The translations under genes were made by a program, and so were the position numbers. Of a DNA stretch of 16,166 bases, positions 1,369-16,166 are shown in pieces (within the stretch, counting starts at the first letter, position 1; each line of letters opens with the position of its first letter). Location of the stretch: positions 1 through 16,166 of IMG/VR virus record IMGVR_UViG_2734482786_000005; one strand, 5' to 3'. This DNA is from a virus (taxonomy: Duplodnaviria > Heunggongvirae > Uroviricota > Caudoviricetes). The notes beneath the pieces were generated by a model. The model did no database searches. It saw only the letters and a list, made by a program, of their open reading frames with translations, and was not told the origin of the DNA.

Positions 1369-1444
1369 GCCGATATAGCTCAGTTGGTAGAGCAGCGCAT
1401 TCGTAATGCGAAGGTCGTAGGTTCGACTCCTATTATCGGCACCA
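1369..1444 (+). tRNA. thrW: tRNA-Thr, anticodon CGT (thrW-type)
   Basis: 76-nt sequence GCCGATATAGCTCAGTTGGTAGAGCAGCGCATTCGTAATGCG...GGTTCGACTCCTATTATCGGCACCA with the usual D-loop and T-loop motifs (GGTTCGA), a CGT anticodon in the loop, and a 3' CCA. Lies directly downstream of proA, as at the enterobacterial thrW locus. Confidence 0.93.
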
Positions 1445-1461: not shown

Positions 1462-1546
1462 GTCTACTAAAGTTCACTGAAACCCCTTATACTCTGCGCT
1501 TTACAGCCCCTTTTAGTATTTCTACGTCTACTAAAGTTCCCTGAAA
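1462..1546 (+). repeat. Two 21-bp direct repeats between tRNA and int (putative arm-type recombinase or accessory-factor sites)
   Basis: GTCTACTAAAGTTCACTGAAA at 1462-1482 and GTCTACTAAAGTTCCCTGAAA at 1526-1546, one mismatch, 64 bp apart. Confidence 0.5.
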
Positions 1547-1610: not shown

Positions 1611-2825
1611 GTGAAACTAAACGCCCGCCAGGTGGACACCGTCAAACCTAAAGATAAGCCTTACAAGCTGGCTGATGGTGGTGGTTTGTATCTCTTGATT
1701 AAACCTAATGGCGGCAAATACTGGCGGCTCAAGTATCGTGTAGCAGGCAAAGAGAAGCTGTTAGCGCTTGGCGTGTATCCTGAAGTCACATTGGCCGATG
1801 CTCGGGCAAAACGTGAAGAAGCCAAAAGGGGGATCGCTGGGGGTATCGATCCTATGGAAGCGAAACGGGAAGAAAAGATTGCCCGTGAAACTCAGTTAAA
1901 CAATACATTCAAAGATATTGCCCTTGAGTGGCACAGCAGCAAACTAAAAAAATGGTCTGCTGGGTATGCTTCAGACATCCTGGAGGCTTTCAACAAAGAT
2001 GTGTTCCCTTACATTGGCAAAAAACCAATAGCTGATATCAAACCGCTTGAACTGTTGAATGTGCTACGGCGCATTGAGGGGCGCGGCGCTACAGAAAAGG
2101 CCAAAAAGGTTAGGCAGCGCTGCGGGGAAGTTTTCCGTTACGCAATAGTCACCGGCCGTGCTGAGTATAACCCTGCTCCGGATCTCACCAGTGCGATGCA
2201 AGGGCATGACTCCAATCATTATCCTTTCCTCACACCAAAGGAATTGCCTGATTTCTTCAAGGCTTTGTCAGGATATACAGGAAGCGCGTTAGTAGTTTTA
2301 GCCGCTCGTCTGCTGATTATAACCGGCTTGCGTACCGGCGAACTCCGCGGGGCATTTTGGGATGAAATCAATATCAATAAGGCGGTCTGGGAAATACCAG
2401 CCTCACGCATGAAAATGCGTCGCCCTCATATAGTGCCATTGTCTGAGCAGGCTCTTTCGCTTATTGGGCAGATTAAAGAACTAACTGGCAATTATCCGCT
2501 TATGTTTCCTGGTCGTAATGATCCAAGAAAAACAATGAGTGAGGCCAGCATAAACCAAGTATTTAAGCGCATTGGTTATAACGGAAAGGTTACTGGCCAC
2601 GGTTTCCGACACACTATGAGCACCATTTTGCATGAGCAGGGCTATAACACTGCGTGGATAGAAACGCAGCTCGCGCACGTCGATAAAAACTCAATTCGTG
2701 GCACATACAACCATGCGCAATATCTGGATGGGCGGCGGGAAATGCTTCAGTGGTACGCTGATTATATGGATTCGCTCGAGCATGGCGGAAATGTGGTGCA
2801 TTGTGAGTTCGGAAAATGCGGGTGA
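1611..2825 (+). CDS. int: tyrosine site-specific integrase (P4-like, tRNA-targeting)
   Basis: 404-aa ORF with GTG start and AGGAGG 9 nt upstream. N-terminal arm-binding type region (KLADGGGLYLLIKPNGGKYWRLKYR) and C-terminal catalytic motifs (LRTGELRG, HGFRHT, a Tyr near the C-terminus). Sits immediately 3' of the tRNA. Confidence 0.9.
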   Translation: MKLNARQVDTVKPKDKPYKLADGGGLYLLIKPNGGKYWRLKYRVAGKEKLLALGVYPEVTLADARAKREEAKRGIAGGIDPMEAKREEKIARETQLNNTFKDIALEWHSSKLKKWSAGYASDILEAFNKDVFPYIGKKPIADIKPLELLNVLRRIEGRGATEKAKKVRQRCGEVFRYAIVTGRAEYNPAPDLTSAMQGHDSNHYPFLTPKELPDFFKALSGYTGSALVVLAARLLIITGLRTGELRGAFWDEININKAVWEIPASRMKMRRPHIVPLSEQALSLIGQIKELTGNYPLMFPGRNDPRKTMSEASINQVFKRIGYNGKVTGHGFRHTMSTILHEQGYNTAWIETQLAHVDKNSIRGTYNHAQYLDGRREMLQWYADYMDSLEHGGNVVHCEFGKCG

Positions 2826-2952
2826 CTGGTTGAGTATACAGTAGTAGACTTTGAGCGATTAAGAAAAGGCTGTGTCTAGGGTCGCTCCCGAAAATCCGTA
2901 CACCTCGGCGGACTGGCACAGCCACTACGGTAGAGGGCGCAGAGGTGTGCGT

Positions 2953-3723
2953 ATGGTTGATATTCATGCCGAATTAAATGAATACAAAAAAGAGTTTATT
3001 TATTTACGTGATTTTCTTGATGATGTATTTAAAGTTGTTGATGCTAATATTTCAGAAGTCATTACCTGGATACTCAAGAGAATAAATACAGTAAATCCAG
3101 GCATTACCCTGTACACAGTAAATTCATTAAATGAGGTGGAGCTTTATTCTTCGGATCCGTTTGAGTGGAGATCTGATTTTAACTTTCTTTATGCAAAACT
3201 GGATACGGTTAGGGAGCGTGGTTGTTTACCTTGTGAGAGGGATGAGAGTGGTTTTCTGGTATCTGGTTATTGGGAAGATGCCGAATTTGAGGCAATGGGA
3301 TTCAGAAGAAATGAAATTTTCGAAATTTTCCCAGAAATCCTTGACGGGTTAATGAATCTGGAATGTGCTGACTCTTCTGAAAATAACGAGGCGCAAGGAA
3401 GCAATATTGAACATAAAGAGTTGCGTACAGATGATGATTTTTTATCCCGAATTGCAATGCTGGAAAAAGAAAATGAATCGTTAAGGGCGCGGGTAAATCA
3501 GTTAGAAAAGGAGCGCCCGATTTTGCTAAAGGCGTATCGTGATGATGACCCATTGTATCTGGCTATCGATATTAGAAACAGAGAGTGGGCCAATTACGAC
3601 CCAGAGAATGATCGCGCAACTAGGGGAAACCAGGGCGCGATTACTACTGAGCTTGAAAAACGAGGTTTTACCTCCCGACAGGCCGCATCTATTGAGCTTG
3701 TCGCCTGTCCTATCAAACGATGA
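2953..3723 (+). CDS. hypothetical protein (AT-rich accessory gene between int and alpA; predicted coiled-coil segment)
   Basis: ORF track gives 2872-3723. I prefer ATG at 2953 (MVDIHAELNEY...) because GAGGTG lies about 7 nt upstream. Sampled lines are clearly AT-rich. Contains an LEKENESLRARVNQLEKE heptad-like stretch. No family recognised. Confidence 0.55.
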   Translation: MVDIHAELNEYKKEFIYLRDFLDDVFKVVDANISEVITWILKRINTVNPGITLYTVNSLNEVELYSSDPFEWRSDFNFLYAKLDTVRERGCLPCERDESGFLVSGYWEDAEFEAMGFRRNEIFEIFPEILDGLMNLECADSSENNEAQGSNIEHKELRTDDDFLSRIAMLEKENESLRARVNQLEKERPILLKAYRDDDPLYLAIDIRNREWANYDPENDRATRGNQGAITTELEKRGFTSRQAASIELVACPIKR

Positions 3724-3763
3724 AGCCTTACCCTAGTGGTATCTCATGTTTTGTTCGCGTCTC

Positions 3764-3840
3764 ACCCTAAGGGTAATCAGACCTCACCCTTAGGGTATTT
3801 TTGTATGCTTTCCCATCAATTTTACTATTACCCTTAGGGT
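3764..3840. promoter_or_regulatory. Three copies of palindromic ACCCTWAGGGT upstream of alpA (putative operator array)
   Basis: ACCCTAAGGGT at 3764-3774, ACCCTTAGGGT at 3786-3796 and 3830-3840, centre-to-centre spacing 22 and 44 bp. A degenerate half-site (TACCCTAGTGGTA) lies at 3729-3741. Confidence 0.5.
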
Positions 3841-3943
3841 AAAAATATTCCCGATTACCATTAGACCTGAGAGCATTAAAATATTCGTTATTTCTGTGCC
3901 ATGATTACCTCGTCAAATTGAGTAGACGTTATGAGGTAAATAT

Positions 3944-4141
3944 ATGTCAAATACGCTTATTCGTTTAACGGAAGTTCAGCGTAGAACTGGATATAGCAAG
4001 GCATGGATTTATCGCCTTATGGGGCAAGGTAAATTTCCTGCATCAGTTAAAATTGGCTCGCGAGCGATTGCTTTCGTTGAGAGTGAAATTGACGAGTGGA
4101 TTAATCAGCGTATTGCGGAATCACGCGGAACAGCTACCTGA
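3944..4141 (+). CDS. alpA: AlpA-family phage/island transcriptional regulator (excision activator type)
   Basis: 65-aa ORF with GAGGTAAAT RBS. The sequence ...RLTEVQRRTGYSKAWIYRLMGQGKFP...VESEIDEWINQR matches the AlpA-family HTH pattern as I recall it (CP4-57 AlpA-like). Confidence 0.85.
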   Translation: MSNTLIRLTEVQRRTGYSKAWIYRLMGQGKFPASVKIGSRAIAFVESEIDEWINQRIAESRGTAT

Positions 4142-4219
4142 TTAAATGGCTACGGGGCCAGAAGTCCCAGCTATCCACCAGCAAATAAAAAGTAACTTAA
4201 TTCGATAGCAGGAGTTTTT

Positions 4220-5020
4220 ATGAAACTGCGAAAAACGCCCGTACAGGGGCAGGGCTTCGTTCGGCCTGAAAACCAGAGCCAACAAAATTTCTGCGAAATT
4301 ATCCCAGTTAGTTCCGGCGTTATTGGCGGGCGTGAAACCAATATTGTTAGCGCCAGAGCGTTGCATAAGGTGCTGGGTGTGAAGCGTGATTTCACAACTT
4401 GGATTAAAGGACGCATTGATGAGTACGGATTTAAAAAGGGCGTGGATTTTGAATTCGTAGAAAATTTGACCTCCCCCAATCCGGTGAGCGCAAAATCTCG
4501 CCAACGTGTAGAGCACGACTACCTGAGCACTATCAACATGGCGAAAGAACTGGCGATGGTCGAGCGCACCGAACAGGGGCGCGCCGTTCGTCAGTACTTT
4601 ATCAAATGCGAGGAGGAGCTACACAAGGTAGCGCCAGTGCGGTCCGCAGTGTTACGCCGGGAACTGAAAGCCCGTATCACAGTTGCCAGCTACTTTAAGC
4701 CAATGTGTGCCGCGCTGGAGGCGTACCGGGCTGAGCTGGGTAAAAACACTCTACAGCACCACTACACCACGGAAGCCAATATGCTGGCGCGTATCGTGCT
4801 GGGTGGCATGACTGCAAAACAGTGGGCGCAGGCGAACGGCATCACAGGCGAACCACGCGACCACATGAGCACGTTGCAGCTTGAGCATCTTTCTTACCTT
4901 GAGCAGAGCAATATCACGCTGATTGAGTTAGGCCAGGACTACCACCAGCGGAAAGCTGAATTAATTCGTCTTTCGCAGCGTTGGTTAGCCCGTCGCATGG
5001 AGGAAAACAGCCATGTGTAA
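4220..5020 (+). CDS. phage-associated protein, tentatively AntA/AntB-type (antirepressor-like) N-terminal domain
   Basis: 266-aa ORF with AGGAG 6-7 nt upstream of the ATG. The stretch SARALHKVLGVKRDFTTWIKGRIDEYGFKKGVDFEF resembles the AntA-type signature as I remember it. The assignment is tentative. Confidence 0.5.
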   Translation: MKLRKTPVQGQGFVRPENQSQQNFCEIIPVSSGVIGGRETNIVSARALHKVLGVKRDFTTWIKGRIDEYGFKKGVDFEFVENLTSPNPVSAKSRQRVEHDYLSTINMAKELAMVERTEQGRAVRQYFIKCEEELHKVAPVRSAVLRRELKARITVASYFKPMCAALEAYRAELGKNTLQHHYTTEANMLARIVLGGMTAKQWAQANGITGEPRDHMSTLQLEHLSYLEQSNITLIELGQDYHQRKAELIRLSQRWLARRMEENSHV

Positions 5021-6055: not shown

Positions 6056-6592
6056 ATGAGAAATTATACCCCACACCCGCAAGGGCGGGACTCGCACAAC
6101 CTGAATAAACCCGATGTAAAAAACCTGTTGCTCGCCACTGCCAGCCAGGGCTATGATTTATACGCACCAGCAAAATCTGGTGCCGGGATTGGCGTCCTGG
6201 TATTTAACGAAGCGCACAACACGCGCCCTGCGTGTTTTTTTGTGCCGGATAGTCACACCTTATCAATGGTGGGCTGTATGGGGGCGGAGCAATCCGCGCC
6301 GGGTTCTTCGTTAACCGGTTACGCCAACCCCGTACAGTCCACCGCCAGCGAAATTGGCGTTTCCTGCGGTGGGTTTATTAACCCTAACGAAGAGGCTGCC
6401 AATATGGCTACAGTCCCTACCCTTGTACATTCTCACACTGTCTTTATCTGGCGCTTTATCATCTTTGGCGCGTCAGAATCCCAAATCATCCACGTCACCG
6501 CCTGGACGGAACGCGAAGCGCGTAACCATTGCCCGTCCTGTTGTGTCGCTGTATTCGCCGCCCGTATTCGTCAGGAGGTGCGCCATGATTAA
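6056..6592 (+). CDS. hypothetical protein (first gene of replication-module operon)
   Basis: ORF track gives 5945-6592. I prefer ATG at 6056 (MRNYTPHPQG...) because GAGGT lies about 5 nt upstream and the longer version would overlap the operator region. No family recognised. Confidence 0.5.
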   Translation: MRNYTPHPQGRDSHNLNKPDVKNLLLATASQGYDLYAPAKSGAGIGVLVFNEAHNTRPACFFVPDSHTLSMVGCMGAEQSAPGSSLTGYANPVQSTASEIGVSCGGFINPNEEAANMATVPTLVHSHTVFIWRFIIFGASESQIIHVTAWTEREARNHCPSCCVAVFAARIRQEVRHD

Positions 6593-12056: not shown

Positions 12057-12063
12057 CGGCCGC

Positions 12064-12390
12064 AAAAAGTGTCAAGTTGAGCAGCTTGCAAGGTTGACAC
12101 TTTACACTCTGAACACGAAAAAGTGTCAACCTCGCTGTAAGCCCCGCCATTACTGGTCTTGCGCCATGTTTGCCACATCAAAAGGCCGAAAAAATCGCGA
12201 AAAGTGTCAAGTTGCCATGCTTAGAAATGCTAAGTTTTGTTAAGGTTTTTCGCGGAAAAGTGTCAACTCAACCTAACGGATCTTAACGCTCACGCACAAC
12301 AGCTGCAGCCAACGTGTAAAGGACTGATGCGAAGCAGGGCAGCTGTCAGCCTGTTATGGTTTGTTATGCCTTACCTGGGGAAAGTGTCAA
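12064..12390. repeat. Array of six AAAGTGTCAA motifs (five direct, one inverted), candidate packaging (cos/pac-type) or protein-binding site
   Basis: Copies at 12066-12075, 12120-12129, 12201-12210, 12257-12266 and 12381-12390 on the plus strand, and an inverted copy TTGACACTTT at 12094-12103. Most are preceded by CGCGAAA or CGCGGAA. A partial copy lies at 12437-12452. Confidence 0.6.
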
Positions 12391-12599: not shown

Positions 12600-14099
12600 T
12601 TATACATTGTATGCGAGGTAATCATATAATGCTAAAAGTTTCCGATAATCAGTATGAGATTTGTCCTTAAACTCCCGGACATGTTTTTCTAAATCTTCTA
12701 AGGGTATATGTTCATCATGAGCATTGAAGAAAATAATATTTTGTAATTTGCTATAACTATCAGAATGTTTAGCGTAAATATCTTCAATGGTATGTTCTAC
12801 TATTCTTTGATTCTTGGGTAACCTGGAATAGTTTAGATTTATTAATCTTTTTTGATTTTTCATTAATGATGTTAAGCATTTAACACCTGGGCTGAATTTA
12901 TGAAAAGCATAAGCTGGGAAATATGATCTTTTATTGATGGTGAACTTGTCAAGCAACTCGACAACATGTGATTCCTTATTTGAAATTAGATCAAAATAGT
13001 TTTCCATCATCTCCTGAGGTGTTTGCATGTATATTTTTATAGAGTTAACAGAACCGACGGCTAGAACAAGCTCATCATTTCTGAGTGTCTCCAAATCCCC
13101 AACAAGTTTTACTTTTATGTCTCCACCTTCCTTTATTTTACCAAAGATACTCTCTACTCTGCGTATATCCATTACCGAAACTGGTAAGTGGAGTTGAGCA
13201 AGTTCTTTATATATATCTGAGAAGTTATCTGTAACGATTTTATTAATGCTAATTAACCCTGCATCTTCTACTTCGAGATCGTGAGAGACAATGTTTAAAT
13301 TATCAATACCTTCTTCTCTTTCAATAAGAAGGAAGTTGTTTTTTATTTTTTCTGCAATTTTAGAACGAGGTGGTATGTATGAGAATATTGTTTTTAATAC
13401 TTTTTTTATATTCGGATCACCTATTCTATATCCCATAAATATAATCGGATTATGTATAAACAAGGATAGGAGTTGAGCACGAATTAATTCATATTTTTTA
13501 TCAAAATGAATATAGTCATCACTGGTTATTATTATGGATTCTGGTTTGCTAACGCATCCGTGAATTTTATAAACAGAACCATAAGGATTGCTTAAAAGTA
13601 TATCATTTCCAATAACAGGATTATAACCAATTGCACTTTCGATAAAATTATCATAGTTTGTCGTAATCACAGAGGCAATGTTTTTTGAGGCCTTTACTAA
13701 TTCAGATATTTCATCTTGAACTCCTAATTTTAAATCTGTGATATTAACCACCTGTGAAAGATAGATTTTAAATCTGCTGATATTTGAGGATATATCTTCT
13801 GACTCGTAGTATAAGTCATTGATATATTTGAACTTTCCGTTCCTGTCTGCTTTTAGTGTTGCATCAAAAATTTGCTCTAATTGCGTTGCTACTTTTGGAA
13901 GGTCTACAATACCATCTTTATTGCTGTTTTCTCTGACAAGATCTTTATAGAGTTCATTAGAATTTGTCAGGTCAATACTAATTTTCTCTAAGAGTGCCGG
14001 CCAGCTATAAGAAATTGATAAGTATCTCATGCTGAAACCTGCTCCAACAAATAATATTGGGTGGTTTCTGTAGCCTTTTAGAAAATCCGTTATATTCAT
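12600..14099 (-). CDS. SIR2-like domain protein (putative NAD+-consuming defence effector) with uncharacterised roughly 200-aa C-terminal region
   Basis: 499-aa minus-strand ORF with GGAGG 5 nt upstream of the ATG at 14097-14099. Motifs checked codon by codon: ILFVGAGFS (aa 15-23, DNA about 14031-14057), TTNYD (aa 146-150, DNA 13650-13664), KIHG with His180 (DNA 13557-13565). AT-rich: sampled lines are about 27-35% G+C. Confidence 0.75.
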   Translation of the reverse strand: MNITDFLKGYRNHPILFVGAGFSMRYLSISYSWPALLEKISIDLTNSNELYKDLVRENSNKDGIVDLPKVATQLEQIFDATLKADRNGKFKYINDLYYESEDISSNISRFKIYLSQVVNITDLKLGVQDEISELVKASKNIASVITTNYDNFIESAIGYNPVIGNDILLSNPYGSVYKIHGCVSKPESIIITSDDYIHFDKKYELIRAQLLSLFIHNPIIFMGYRIGDPNIKKVLKTIFSYIPPRSKIAEKIKNNFLLIEREEGIDNLNIVSHDLEVEDAGLISINKIVTDNFSDIYKELAQLHLPVSVMDIRRVESIFGKIKEGGDIKVKLVGDLETLRNDELVLAVGSVNSIKIYMQTPQEMMENYFDLISNKESHVVELLDKFTINKRSYFPAYAFHKFSPGVKCLTSLMKNQKRLINLNYSRLPKNQRIVEHTIEDIYAKHSDSYSKLQNIIFFNAHDEHIPLEDLEKHVREFKDKSHTDYRKLLALYDYLAYNV

Positions 14100-14190: not shown

Positions 14191-15318
14191 TTATTGACCA
14201 TTTGGATAGTAAATTTTCATAAGCCTCTCTTTTTCTTTGTTGAATTCTTTATCAAAATCAATTTTTTTGTCTAAATTAGAATGTAAGTCATTTAACGCTT
14301 TAACAAGAACCCAAGCGCTGTGGTGGATGAATGGGTTTAATCCAATAATGTTTCCTGCAGAATTATCGTCAACTTTCTCAACTGCTAAAATCGCTTGGAT
14401 TTTTTTACAGCTTTCCTGAATATTCCAATCTGAAACATGTAGTAATAATGCAGATAAAGCCATGAGTGGGTTGTTTGCTTTAATAGATGTAGGGGTGTAA
14501 CTAATAATCATACGGAGTCGAGGGTGGTAGTCTCGAATCAGTCTCGCCATTCGAGTAGCTATCTCATATTTTTCGTTGAGAATTGATCTGTCAAATGTTG
14601 ACGTCCCAGAGTCTTTAATTAATATAGTTCTTGCTTTTTTGACTACTGATTTAAGTCTTACATTCCAAAGCTCAGGATTCTCATGACGGTCTAGATAGAA
14701 TTGAGGATGCTTGAAATAAAGAGATTGATATACTTCCTCGTTGATATCGAACCAACTTTTGTTTATGGCGCTGAGATCGACAACATAATTATCATTGTTT
14801 CTCTTATATCTAATCAATGAGGCCTTTGCAAGGTAGATTATGTGAGGGCTTAAATTAAATGTAAAAGTGCCTTTTTCTCTTAAATCTAAGAACCATTGGC
14901 GCATGTTACGTATATCTTCTTGCGTAAAAATCTTCTCCTGAATTCCCGCACAGACCATAAGACCTATTAAGCGTGTCGCTTCAGAACCCGAGCGCATAAA
15001 ATCAATTTGGCCTTCATTTGAAACAACGTTCAACTTATCATCGCCAGTATAAAAATCACAAAATGGGAGGTGAGAGTCTTTACCTAGATTGTCTCGAAAT
15101 GCAAAGTGTGCTTGCTTTACAACTTTGCCGTTACTGAGAGATCTTCCTTCCGAAACGTAATAACCACCAGAAACATTGCATGCCGGGCATTCAACATCCT
15201 CTTTAACAAAATCTCTAAAACTTAGAGAAGGATCTGAGTTGCTACGTTCGAAAAGGTTTTCCAACTGCTTAGCATCCAGCTCACGCTTAAATTTTCTAGA
15301 ATAGGCCGTTATCGTCAT
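14191..15318 (-). CDS. hypothetical protein, partner of the SIR2-like gene (376 aa from the preferred start)
   Basis: Track ORF 14191-15384. I prefer ATG at 15316-15318 (MTITAYSRKF...) because AAGGAG lies 6 nt upstream. Co-oriented with the SIR2-like gene and 91 bp upstream of it. AT-rich. Contains CPACN ... LPFCDF cysteines. I see no Walker A and no TIR-like signature. Confidence 0.65.
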   Translation of the reverse strand: MTITAYSRKFKRELDAKQLENLFERSNSDPSLSFRDFVKEDVECPACNVSGGYYVSEGRSLSNGKVVKQAHFAFRDNLGKDSHLPFCDFYTGDDKLNVVSNEGQIDFMRSGSEATRLIGLMVCAGIQEKIFTQEDIRNMRQWFLDLREKGTFTFNLSPHIIYLAKASLIRYKRNNDNYVVDLSAINKSWFDINEEVYQSLYFKHPQFYLDRHENPELWNVRLKSVVKKARTILIKDSGTSTFDRSILNEKYEIATRMARLIRDYHPRLRMIISYTPTSIKANNPLMALSALLLHVSDWNIQESCKKIQAILAVEKVDDNSAGNIIGLNPFIHHSAWVLVKALNDLHSNLDKKIDFDKEFNKEKERLMKIYYPNGQ

Positions 15319-15531
15319 TTCGGTCTCCTTTCGAAGGGAGCTTAACTTTATCATAGGATGATCATAAAGGGAGCTGTACGGCAAACATCACTAAGGTTGG
15401 GCCTGAAACACAAATTCCCTAAGTGCAATTTTGACGTCTAACTTACTTGATGTGCTTCAAGGCGGTTCTTACATTGTGGTATCAACAACAATAGAATGTT
15501 TTTTAAACAATTTAGATAGCAACAAGCAAGT

Positions 15532-15755: not shown

Positions 15756-16166
15756 TTAAGCCAATTGCTGCCGCCATTCCTTGACGTGGTCAATCAGGGC
15801 GCGGAGCTTTGGTGCAATATTGCGACGCTGTGGGAAATACAGATAGAAGCCTGGAAATTGTGGAAGAAAGTCATCAAGCAGCGATACAAGCTTACCGCTT
15901 TCAATATATGGCCTGAAAGTTTCCTGAGTGGCAATTGTTATTCCTCCGCCGGCAAGAGCCAGCCTCAACATCAGACGCAGATCATTAGTCGTAATCTGCG
16001 GTTCAATCGCAAGGTCGAAAGTTCTCCCGTTTTCTTCAAATGGCCAGCGATAAGGCGCAACCTCCGGGGACTGACGCCAGCCGATACACTTATGGGTATT
16101 TCCCCCGGAGGCGAGAAAGCGCTCTCCACGCCCGGCCGCAAGGATCAGGACGACGGGGGCAGGCAT
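15756..16166 (-). CDS. LysR-family transcriptional regulator, C-terminal effector-binding portion (gene continues beyond window end)
   Basis: Open frame running from the window edge to a stop at 15756-15758. The C-terminal sequence ...LALAGGGITIATQETFRPYIESGKLVSLLDDFLPQFPGFYLYFPQRRNIAPKLRALIDHV is characteristic of LysR substrate-binding domains. Core-like G+C. Confidence 0.7.
   Translation of the reverse strand: MPAPVVLILAAGRGERFLASGGNTHKCIGWRQSPEVAPYRWPFEENGRTFDLAIEPQITTNDLRLMLRLALAGGGITIATQETFRPYIESGKLVSLLDDFLPQFPGFYLYFPQRRNIAPKLRALIDHVKEWRQQLA

What the first reader, a model, noticed from the sequence alone, without database searches (positions are those of the whole stretch)
2953..3723. 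AT-rich accessory gene wedged between int and alpA
A 256-aa ORF with no family I recognise and a predicted coiled-coil stretch sits in a second known variable slot of such islands. The first part of the ORF is markedly AT-rich compared with int. The position is typical for morons such as defence or anti-defence factors or superinfection-exclusion genes, separate from the main cargo operon.
Basis: inference. Interest (0 to 1): 0.5.

Follow-up and report, generated by a model that had tools for sequence, protein, structure and literature searches.

The report
Modular regulator wired to satellite alpA
The ORF is real and conserved, and it looks less like a cargo "moron" than like an unannotated zipper-dimer regulator that travels with its own array of palindromic DNA sites in front of alpA, the master switch of this phage-satellite island, so it may be how such islands decide when to wake up.

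Summary
The 256-aa ORF (2953-3723) is real, AT-rich and intact in 171 of 5426 complete E. coli genomes. No Pfam, PHROG, NCBIfam, PADLOC, PDB-sequence or fold match was significant. The window is an EcCIMP1-like phage-inducible chromosomal island at tRNA-Thr.

The protein is modular: a shuffled N-terminal module, a leucine zipper (aa 160-187) and a conserved 70-aa C-terminal domain (CTD).

In all loci examined (Enterobacterales, Orbaceae, Pasteurellaceae, metagenomes) the CTD gene is followed by an alpA gene.

Between its stop codon and alpA lie 4-5 phased palindromes, TACCCTnAGGGTA. The last sits inside the only sigma70-like promoter.

The palindromes follow the CTD, not AlpA:
- AlpA 97-98% identical with a swapped CTD gives different palindromes.
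- AlpA 38-51% identical with a CTD-family member gives the same palindrome.

The N-module recombines separately from CTD plus operators. The orphan Rfam motif "int-alpA RNA" (2869-2936) lies just upstream, as it does for other slot genes.

Best reading (about 0.5): a cis-linked DNA-binding regulator of alpA, probably a repressor, with a variable input domain. DNA binding, the sign of regulation and helper sensing are all inferred. The defence-moron reading is not supported.

The parts
1369..1444 (+). tRNA-Thr (CGU), the integration site (thrW, downstream of proA)
   Evidence: ARAGORN; Rfam tRNA; the same site as EcCIMP1 (PMC11773190)
1611..2825 (+). P4-type tyrosine integrase of the island
   Evidence: Pfam Arm-DNA-bind_3, Phage_int_M and Phage_integrase
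2869..2936 (+). Rfam RF02996 'int-alpA RNA' motif. It ends 16 nt before the ORF's ATG and is most likely the 5' leader of the slot gene.
   Evidence: 45.8 bits against a gathering score of 35.8. The same motif lies 14-20 nt upstream of the slot gene in 23 of 27 slot-containing loci, including unrelated slot-gene families, and in 0 of 3 slot-less islands.
2953..3723 (+). The finding: a 256-aa modular protein (WP_000227606)
2953..3369 (+). N-terminal module (aa 1-139), the AT-rich part. AF2 gives an alpha/beta fold with a winged-helix-like order (a1-b1-a2-a3-b2-b3) plus a small 'GFRR' b-a-a unit. It is replaced by unrelated modules in relatives and is a separate gene in Yersinia and Proteus.
   Evidence: AF2 pLDDT about 85-90. 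Intragenic swap of nt 2974-3540 relative to L041. Split genes. Diverse N-terminal parts across the family.
3430..3513 (+). Leucine zipper (aa 160-187), with Asn174 at an 'a' position, which suggests a parallel dimer (inferred)
   Evidence: AF2 single helix; bZIP zipper-only hits below threshold; E173, L177 and L184 are invariant or nearly so
3511..3720 (+). Conserved C-terminal domain (aa 187-256), a five-helix bundle ending in '...IELVACPIKR'. It is the proposed operator-binding domain.
   Evidence: Alignment A3 with 64% mean column identity. AF2 pLDDT 85. Only 90 cluster representatives among 1.84 billion, and in those inspected it sits at the extreme C-terminus. No significant fold match.
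3729..3741 (.). Operator O1, TACCCTAGTGGTA (degenerate palindrome)
3763..3775 (.). Operator O2, CACCCTAAGGGTA
3785..3797 (.). Operator O3, CACCCTTAGGGTA
3829..3841 (.). Operator O4, TACCCTTAGGGTA (perfect)
3864..3874 (.). Operator O5, GACCTGAGAGC. It is degenerate in this window, but relatives have rGCCTGAGGGT at the same place, 34 bp after O4 and about 75 bp before the alpA ATG. It lies in the spacer of the promoter-like site.
   Evidence: Conserved spacing of 32-34 / 21-23 / 42-44 / 34 bp across genera
3855..3882 (+). The only sigma70-like site on either strand in 2700-4300: TTACCA-16-TAAAAT, the candidate alpA promoter
   Evidence: a consensus match only
3944..4141 (+). alpA, the master activator of Gram-negative PICIs and the proposed regulated gene
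   Evidence: Pfam PF05930; role of AlpA from PMC6092414 and PMC11773190

Best explanation
The ORF encodes a member of an unannotated family of modular regulators that is tied in cis to the promoter of alpA, the master activator of Gram-negative phage-inducible chromosomal islands (PICIs).

Proposed mechanism:
1. The protein is made from the int side, behind the 'int-alpA RNA' leader.
2. It dimerises through its leucine zipper.
3. Its conserved 70-aa C-terminal domain binds the 4-5 helically phased palindromes TACCCTnAGGGTA that fill the gap between its stop codon and alpA. The last palindrome lies inside the promoter spacer.
4. Most likely this keeps alpA shut. It may also block read-through from int, because no terminator separates the two genes.
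5. The interchangeable N-terminal module is the input domain. The most likely input is a helper-phage product, whose binding releases or remodels the complex and lets AlpA start the island's cycle.

Shown here: synteny, the operator array and its phasing, covariation between CTD and operators, shuffling of the modules, and linkage to the leader RNA.

Inferred: DNA binding itself, the sign of regulation (a helper-dependent activator is possible, see PICMI iolg), and helper sensing.
For: 1. Synteny. All 31 CTD-family loci examined place the gene between a P4-type int and an AlpA-family gene. They come from E. coli, Citrobacter, Yersinia, Proteus, Pantoea, Kluyvera, Raoultella, Photorhabdus, Xenorhabdus, Cedecea, Atlantibacter, Orbaceae, Pasteurellaceae and metagenomes, at different att sites.

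2. Operators in the window. TACCCTnAGGGTA occurs four times, only in 3729-3841, against 0.26 expected by chance. A 5-bp stem with a 1-nt loop cannot form an RNA hairpin, so these are sites in DNA.

3. Footprint. The palindromes and the spacing of their centres (32-34 / 21-23 / 42-44 / 34 bp, roughly whole helical turns, with the last about 75 bp before the alpA ATG) are kept from E. coli to Yersinia, Pantoea, Kluyvera and Raoultella. The sequence between them diverges.

4. Covariation in both directions.
- L014: AlpA is 97% identical, but the CTD is only a remote homologue (hhalign 88%, E 3e-6), and the sites become AATGGT-type.
- L018 against L027: AlpA is 98% identical and the CTD 47%. The sites shift from ACCCTnAGGGT to ACCCTsAkrGT.
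- L063 and L064: AlpA is 51% and 38% identical, with CTD-family members, and the sites are still (A/G)CCCTnAGGG(T/G).
- Orbaceae and Pasteurellaceae: their AlpAs are 33% identical to each other, yet both have ACTATnATAGT.

5. Units of exchange.
- The whole cassette (gene, operators and promoter; window 2873-3922) is swapped between constant int and alpA.
- The N-module alone (nt 2974-3540) is swapped while CTD, operators and alpA stay about 91% identical.
- A CTD was never seen exchanged without its operators.

6. Specificity of the array. Two sites 9-13 bp apart occur 24 times in 2.9 million viral contigs. Twenty of those sit directly between a CTD gene end and alpA.

7. Gene fission. In Yersinia and Proteus the protein is split into an N-module gene and a zipper-plus-CTD gene.

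8. Dimer. The zipper has Asn at an 'a' position, with Ile and Val at the other 'a' positions and Leu at 'd'. By the GCN4 rules of Harbury et al. 1993 (my own knowledge) this suggests a parallel dimer, which fits palindromic sites. The last 35 aa are basic (pI 10) and show an HTH-like pattern.

9. Literature context. How helper phages switch on alpA in Gram-negative PICIs is unknown, and no repressor has been identified (PMC6092414).
Against: - There is no direct evidence of DNA binding.
- The CTD as a whole is charge-neutral and the full protein is acidic, with pI 4.6.
- Covariation between CTD and operators could partly reflect physical linkage, because the two are adjacent and move as one block.
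- CTD identity does not predict the operator in a simple way. L064 has a CTD 28% identical and the same site; L014 has a CTD 29% identical and a different site.
- Experimentally helper-inducible PICIs lack any slot gene: EcCIMP1 and EcCICFT073, where alpA appears to be ORF2 (inferred). The protein is therefore not required for helper induction in general.
- O5 is degenerate in this particular window.
- In the Vibrio PICMI satellite, deleting the gene in the same position abolished excision rather than causing it (PMC10803314). That argues against a simple repressor, if the two are analogous.
Confidence: 0.5

Rival explanations
1. An excision or life-cycle cofactor, like IOLG of the Vibrio PICMI satellites. 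The protein would work with Int and AlpA, for example as an architectural or recombination-directionality partner, rather than as a transcription factor. The palindromes would serve another purpose.
For: In PICMI115 the gene between int and alpA (iolg) is essential for helper-induced excision. PICMIs carry 13 unrelated gene families in that slot (PMC10803314). Here the gene is co-oriented with int and sits behind a conserved leader RNA.
Against: The palindrome array is about 2.3 kb from attL, not at an att arm, and it overlaps the only promoter-like site in front of alpA. The operators change while int stays the same (L014). The PICMI phenotype is equally explained by a sensor or activator needed to switch on alpA. 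No sequence relationship to IOLG was tested.
Confidence: 0.15
2. One reading: an accessory moron for defence, anti-defence or superinfection exclusion. The variable N-terminal part would sense or target phages, and the function would be unrelated to control of the island.
For: The slot is variable among islands that share the int. The N-module is AT-rich, recombines and is highly diverse, as in many defence sensors. Satellites do carry defence cargo, and this island has a SIR2/PDC-S25 gene.
Against: There is no PADLOC, PHROG or Pfam hit and no enzymatic or membrane domain. The gene is never found in phages or plasmids. In all loci examined it is followed by alpA, over three orders. It is exchanged together with alpA's promoter and operators. 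It shares its leader RNA with the other slot genes.
Confidence: 0.12
3. The palindromes are bound by something else, such as a helper-phage regulator or a host factor. The conserved CTD would be a protein-protein interaction domain, for example an anti-activator that holds AlpA, or an RNA polymerase or Int partner.
For: The CTD has no recognisable DNA-binding fold, and the protein is acidic. Slot-less PICIs are still induced by helpers acting on the alpA promoter region.
Against: Int is excluded by L014. A host factor is unlikely because the sites change with the cassette inside E. coli. Double sites were not seen in bona fide phage contexts: 20 of 24 hits are satellite loci and the other 4 look like hairpins.
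Confidence: 0.15

Closest known systems
SaPI Stl / PICI Rpr master repressors (Gram-positive satellites)
   Same: Encoded by the satellite next to int. Proposed here to sit on operators in front of the gene that starts the satellite cycle. Built from modules, with one conserved DNA-reading part and one highly variable part that, in Stl, binds different helper-phage proteins.
   Different: There is no sequence or fold relationship. Stl has an N-terminal XRE-type HTH and is transcribed divergently from its target. Here the conserved domain is C-terminal, follows a leucine zipper, and the gene is co-directional with alpA. Function here is inferred, not shown.
IOLG / icg genes of Vibrio PICMI satellites (PMC10803314)
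   Same: Same position (int, then gene, then alpA). Many unrelated families occupy the slot. Function is unknown, but the gene is required for the satellite's own cycle rather than being cargo.
   Different: iolg overlaps int by 1-13 nt, whereas here a 127-nt spacer holds the int-alpA RNA. Sequence homology was not tested. The PICMI mutant loses excision, so the sign of action may differ.
Phage immunity cassettes (CI-type repressor plus operators) and P. aeruginosa AlpR-alpA
   Same: The regulator gene and its cognate operators are exchanged as one unit, giving different 'immunity types' on a constant backbone. AlpR is an adjacent repressor of an alpA gene (my own knowledge, not checked here).
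   Different: There is no HTH_3, S24-peptidase or other known repressor domain. The domain order is sensor, zipper, then DNA-reading domain. There is no sign of SOS-dependent autocleavage.
bZIP transcription factors (RefSeq name on one E. coli homologue, row H24)
   Same: A short leucine zipper with Asn at an 'a' position, and short palindromic candidate sites.
   Different: Only the zipper matches, at 17.3 bits against a cut-off of 27.6. The segment before the zipper is acidic, not basic. The conserved domain lies after the zipper.
Rfam RF02996 int-alpA RNA
   Same: The motif is present at 2869-2936, above the gathering score, and named for this kind of location.
   Different: Rfam types it as an sRNA gene. 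Here it consistently ends 14-20 nt before the start codon of whichever slot gene is present, and it is absent when the slot is empty. That points to a cis-acting 5' leader.

Membership tests
Stl/Rpr-type satellite master repressor | Recognisable HTH (XRE/HTH_3-type) DNA-binding domain | tested here: not met
Stl/Rpr-type satellite master repressor | Transcribed divergently from the operon it represses | tested here: not met
   The gene is on the same strand as alpA, 220 nt upstream of it.
Stl/Rpr-type satellite master repressor | Binds operators at the regulated promoter | tested here: inconclusive
   A phased palindrome array reaches into the promoter spacer and covaries with the CTD. No binding assay is possible with these tools.
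Stl/Rpr-type satellite master repressor | Derepressed when a helper-phage protein binds it | not testable with these tools
   The only support is indirect: the N-module is hypervariable and recombines independently.
bZIP transcription factor | Basic DNA-contact region immediately N-terminal to the zipper, and a Pfam score above the gathering threshold | tested here: not met
   17.3 and 16.6 bits against cut-offs of 27.6 and 22.3, matching only the zipper half of the models. The preceding residues, ELRTDDDFLSR, are acidic.
Known anti-phage defence systems (PADLOC) | Match to a defence-protein HMM | tested here: not met
   No families matched at E <= 0.1, while the island's SIR2 gene matches PDC-S25 at 2e-139.
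PICMI IOLG/icg (positional class) | Lies between int and alpA on the same strand | tested here: met
PICMI IOLG/icg (positional class) | Overlaps or abuts int (ATGA-type overlap) | tested here: not met
   A 127-nt gap contains RF02996.
PICMI IOLG/icg (positional class) | Required for helper-induced excision | not testable with these tools
   This needs a deletion mutant.
Immunity-type regulator/operator cassette | Regulator and cognate sites are exchanged as one unit on a constant backbone | tested here: met
   Window against L014 and L016, and L018 against L027. The breakpoints lie just after int and 21-54 nt before the alpA ATG.
CTD family defined here (zipper plus '...AIxIRNxEW...IExVACPIxR') | The conserved 70-aa domain at the extreme C-terminus after a coiled coil, followed by palindromes and alpA | tested here: met

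The most novel reading that the evidence does not exclude
This protein family is the missing helper-phage sensor of a large group of Gram-negative PICIs. It would be an Stl analogue of unrelated fold and reversed architecture. Its interchangeable N-terminal modules would each recognise a different helper-phage protein. Its zipper-CTD dimer would gate the alpA promoter through a five-site nucleoprotein complex. Its own synthesis would be set by the so far orphan int-alpA RNA leader.
Probability: 0.3. Interest if true: 0.8.

Novelty: new variant of a known kind. Interest (0 to 1): 0.62.

Why it matters

This analysis gives:
- a concrete candidate protein family, testable in E. coli;
- its candidate DNA sites and their conserved geometry;
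- natural specificity variants, ACCCT against ACTAT against AATGG;
- natural N-module swaps that could define helper range.

It also gives a likely role, as a 5' leader, to an orphan Rfam motif. If the reading is wrong, the gene is still a conserved satellite-specific protein with two domains that have no recognisable fold.

Tried and rejected
- **Family and sequence searches.** Pfam, PHROGs, NCBIfam, PADLOC and PDB sequences returned only coiled-coil noise.
- **Phage and plasmid records.** tblastn found no match in either collection.
- **Upstream GTG-2872 start (283 aa).** Rejected, because E. coli 55989 has an in-frame TGA in that stretch.
- **RBS-sequestering hairpin at 2894-2954.** The fold is no better than shuffled sequence, z = -0.41. 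That stretch is instead explained by the Rfam int-alpA motif.
- **AlpA or Int as readers of the palindromes.** Rejected by the natural swaps.
- **Palindromes as RNA hairpins or terminators.** Rejected, because a 1-nt loop cannot form and no terminator-like site lies on the + strand.
- **bZIP membership.** Rejected.
- **Homology of the L016-type slot protein to the CTD.** None, hhalign 0.8%.
- **EcCIMP1_002 as a homologue.** EcCIMP1 has no such gene, only a 427-bp gap.
- **Supplement of Weinberg 2017 on int-alpA.** Not held in the library.

Full report
**1. The observation**

The window starts with the end of proA, followed by tRNA-Thr (1369-1444). Next come a P4-type integrase (1611-2825), the ORF in question (2953-3723, 256 aa) and alpA (3944-4141). 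These are followed by antA, an isrK/C4 RNA pair with an icd-like gene, DUF4222, a DUF927 primase, ProQ/FinO, PerC and a SIR2 gene.

This is the layout of EcCIMP1, an experimentally verified phage-inducible chromosomal island (PICI) at the same tRNA-Thr site (PMC11773190). The 2826-3943 stretch is 100% identical to E. coli BCE049, where the ORF is annotated 'hypothetical protein'.

- GC content is 0.38-0.40 across most of the ORF, against 0.46-0.50 in int.
- AlphaFold2 predicts a single long helix at aa 160-187.
- The only family hits are sub-threshold matches to the zipper half of the bZIP models.
- The upstream GTG at 2872 is not the start, because E. coli 55989 has an in-frame TGA there.

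**2. What the protein is made of**

A search of 5.8 billion proteins gave 75 relatives, all unnamed and without Pfam domains. Alignments show three parts.
- A fast-evolving N-terminal module, which is replaced by unrelated sequences in some relatives and absent in others.
- A leucine zipper.
- A strongly conserved C-terminal domain (CTD, aa 187-256): ERPILL..YRDDDPL.LAI.IRN.EW..YDPENDR.TRGNQ.AI..L...GF...QA..IELVACPIKR.

A profile of the CTD, searched against 1.84 billion representatives, found only 90 clusters. In the proteins whose sequences I inspected, the CTD lies at the extreme C-terminus of proteins of 150-515 aa, after a coiled coil and very different N-terminal parts.

In Yersinia and Proteus the protein is split into two adjacent genes. 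One encodes a 99-109-aa N-module that is homologous to the N-module of some fused E. coli forms. The other encodes a 143-151-aa zipper-plus-CTD protein.

**3. Where the gene sits**

Every CTD gene I could place lies between a P4-type integrase and an AlpA-family gene, on the same strand. This holds in E. coli, Citrobacter, Yersinia, Proteus, Pantoea, Kluyvera, Raoultella, Symbiopectobacterium, Photorhabdus, Xenorhabdus, Cedecea, Atlantibacter, Sodalis, an Orbaceae bacterium, several Pasteurellaceae and higher-GC metagenomic contigs. The att sites differ among them.

No homologue exists in 50,697 phage or 72,556 plasmid records.

In E. coli, 505 of 5426 complete genomes carry a full-length int of this family, and 171 carry this gene. 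The remaining islands have one of the following:
- a 238-aa distant relative (L014);
- an unrelated 251-aa coiled-coil protein (L015, L016);
- a DUF6387 protein (L067);
- nothing at all (EcCIMP1 = L038, L066, L068).

**4. The DNA between the gene and alpA**

The 220-nt spacer holds TACCCTnAGGGTA four times (3729-3841). This is the only place in the window where it occurs, against 0.26 matches expected by chance. A fifth, degenerate copy (3864-3874) lies in the spacer of the only sigma70-like site in the region, TTACCA-16-TAAAAT at 3855-3882.

The same palindrome array is found after the CTD gene in every genus. The distances between site centres are conserved at 32-34, 21-23, 42-44 and 34 bp. 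The last site lies about 75 bp before the alpA ATG and abuts a -10-like TATGAwAAT. The sequence between the sites diverges.

A 5-bp stem with a 1-nt loop cannot fold as RNA, so these are protein-binding sites in DNA. Their phasing suggests a cooperative multi-dimer complex.

In 2.9 million viral contigs, two such sites 9-13 bp apart occur 24 times. Twenty of these sit exactly between a CTD gene end and alpA.

**5. Who reads the palindromes**

Natural variation gives tests in both directions.

| Comparison | AlpA identity | CTD | Sites |
|---|---|---|---|
| Window vs L014 | 97% (same int family) | Remote homologue only (hhalign 88%, E 3e-6) | AATGGT-type half-sites instead of ACCCTnAGGGT |
| L018 vs L027 | 98% | 47% identical | ACCCTnAGGGT becomes ACCCTsAkrGT |
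| Window vs L063, L064 | 51%, 38% | CTD-family members | Still (A/G)CCCTnAGGG(T/G) |
| Orbaceae vs Pasteurellaceae | 33% to each other | CTD-family members | Both ACTATnATAGT |

These comparisons exclude AlpA and Int as the readers of the sites.

Recombination breakpoints show two nested units of exchange.
- The whole cassette (gene, operators and promoter; window 2873-3922) is swapped between constant int and alpA.
- The N-module with the zipper (nt 2974-3540) is swapped on its own, while CTD, operators and alpA stay about 91% identical (L041).

I never saw a CTD exchanged without its sites. This is what a CTD-operator recognition pair with a separate input module predicts. The caveat is that adjacent elements are also linked physically.

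**6. The leader RNA**

Rfam RF02996, 'int-alpA RNA', which Rfam lists as an sRNA, matches 2869-2936 at 45.8 bits against a gathering score of 35.8. It ends 16 nt before the ATG.

It is found 14-20 nt before the start of the slot gene in 23 of 27 slot-containing loci. These include loci whose slot gene is the unrelated 251-aa type or DUF6387, and the split-gene loci, where it precedes the N-module gene. It is found in none of 3 slot-less islands.

It therefore looks like the 5' leader of whatever occupies the slot. The conserved module is int, then int-alpA RNA, then slot gene(s), then palindromes, then alpA.

**7. Mechanism**

My best reading has five steps.
1. The protein is produced from the int side.
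2. It dimerises through the zipper. Asn174 at an 'a' position and Leu at 'd' suggest a parallel dimer by the GCN4 rules, which I cite from my own knowledge.
3. It places two CTDs on each palindrome.
4. It builds a phased complex reaching from about -155 into the promoter spacer.
5. This holds alpA off until the N-module receives a signal, most plausibly a helper-phage protein.

The absence of a terminator between the gene and alpA makes a block at this position useful.

The literature fits this reading. AlpA is necessary and sufficient to start the PICI cycle, its expression depends on the helper, and no repressor or inducer is known in Gram-negative PICIs (PMC6092414; PMC11773190).

The sign of regulation is uncertain. 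In the Vibrio PICMI satellite, the gene in the same slot (iolg) is required for helper-induced excision (PMC10803314). That result would fit a sensor or activator better than a repressor.

DNA binding, the sign of regulation and helper sensing are all inferences. The weak points are these:
- the lack of a recognisable DNA-binding fold;
- an acidic protein, pI 4.6;
- the linkage caveat in section 5;
- slot-less PICIs are also helper-inducible.

**8. Comparison with known systems, novelty and verdict**

Functionally the protein resembles SaPI Stl and phage immunity cassettes. It fails their membership tests: it has no HTH and is not divergently transcribed. It is not a bZIP protein and not a known defence protein.

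Positionally it belongs with the PICMI iolg/icg genes. I file it as a new variant of a known kind: a regulator-operator cassette of a mobile element, built on a protein family and domains that have not been described.

The moron or defence interpretation is not supported.

Noticed in passing
window 2869-2936 (+); also L002, L003, L006, L009, L011, L015-L022, L024, L025, L027-L030, L037, L064, L067: The Rfam orphan motif RF02996 'int-alpA RNA' ends 14-20 nt before the start codon of whichever gene occupies the int-alpA slot. This holds for three unrelated gene families. The motif is absent from slot-less islands, so it looks like a cis-acting 5' leader rather than an sRNA.
   Followed up: partly
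window 12600-14099 (-) and 14191-15384 (-): A SIR2-domain protein matches PADLOC PDC-S25 at 2e-139, with ThsA-like STALD hits. Next to it is a 397-aa partner with no family. Together they are probably the island's defence cargo. E. coli 55989 carries an AAA ATPase plus a DUF4435 gene at the equivalent place.
   Followed up: partly
window 6164-6240 and 6262-6349 (+): isrK and C4 antisense RNA, both Rfam hits above threshold, lie just upstream of the icd-like gene. This is the P1/P7-type RNA immunity module. It recurs in most related islands, including those of Pasteurellaceae and Orbaceae.
   Followed up: no
L003-L008, L017-L020 (Yersinia, Proteus, Pantoea, Kluyvera, Raoultella, Symbiopectobacterium): The slot protein is split into two genes. 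The N-module ORF ends in ...IPF, and the zipper-plus-CTD ORF either overlaps it by ATGA or follows 18 nt later. This is a natural fusion/fission pair.
   Followed up: partly
L014 3766-4021; L016 3792-3830; L067 4780-4820; L038 18950-18990: Each alternative occupant of the slot, and even the empty slot of EcCIMP1, comes with its own different palindromes in front of alpA. L014 has AATGGT half-sites. L016 has two copies of ACCGCAATTGCGGT. L067 has CCGCTTTGAATAC-N7-GTATTTCAAAGCGG. EcCIMP1 has AAAGACCGCAATATG-N7-CATATTGTGGTCTTT.
   Followed up: partly
window 1462-1482 and 1526-1546; window 12061-12267: Two groups of direct repeats. GTCTACTAAAGTTC(A/C)CTGAAA occurs twice between the tRNA and int and may be integrase arm sites. 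CG(C/G)AAAAGTGTCAA(G/C) occurs four times just before the SIR2 cargo; its function is unknown.
   Followed up: no
L030-L035 (Pasteurellaceae bacterium Macca): One genome carries six loci with the same 354-aa CTD-family protein (two of them truncated), the same operators and the same alpA. This points to many copies of one satellite.
   Followed up: no
window 15756-16166 (-): The right end of the window encodes a LysR substrate-binding domain. BCE049 has a second integrase at the corresponding distance. The window's right flank therefore differs from the strain that matches 2826-3943 exactly. The island's right boundary was not determined.
   Followed up: no
RefSeq annotations seen: Homologues or slot neighbours are sporadically named 'bZIP transcription factor' or 'protein kinase'. 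Neither name is supported by domain evidence.
   Followed up: partly
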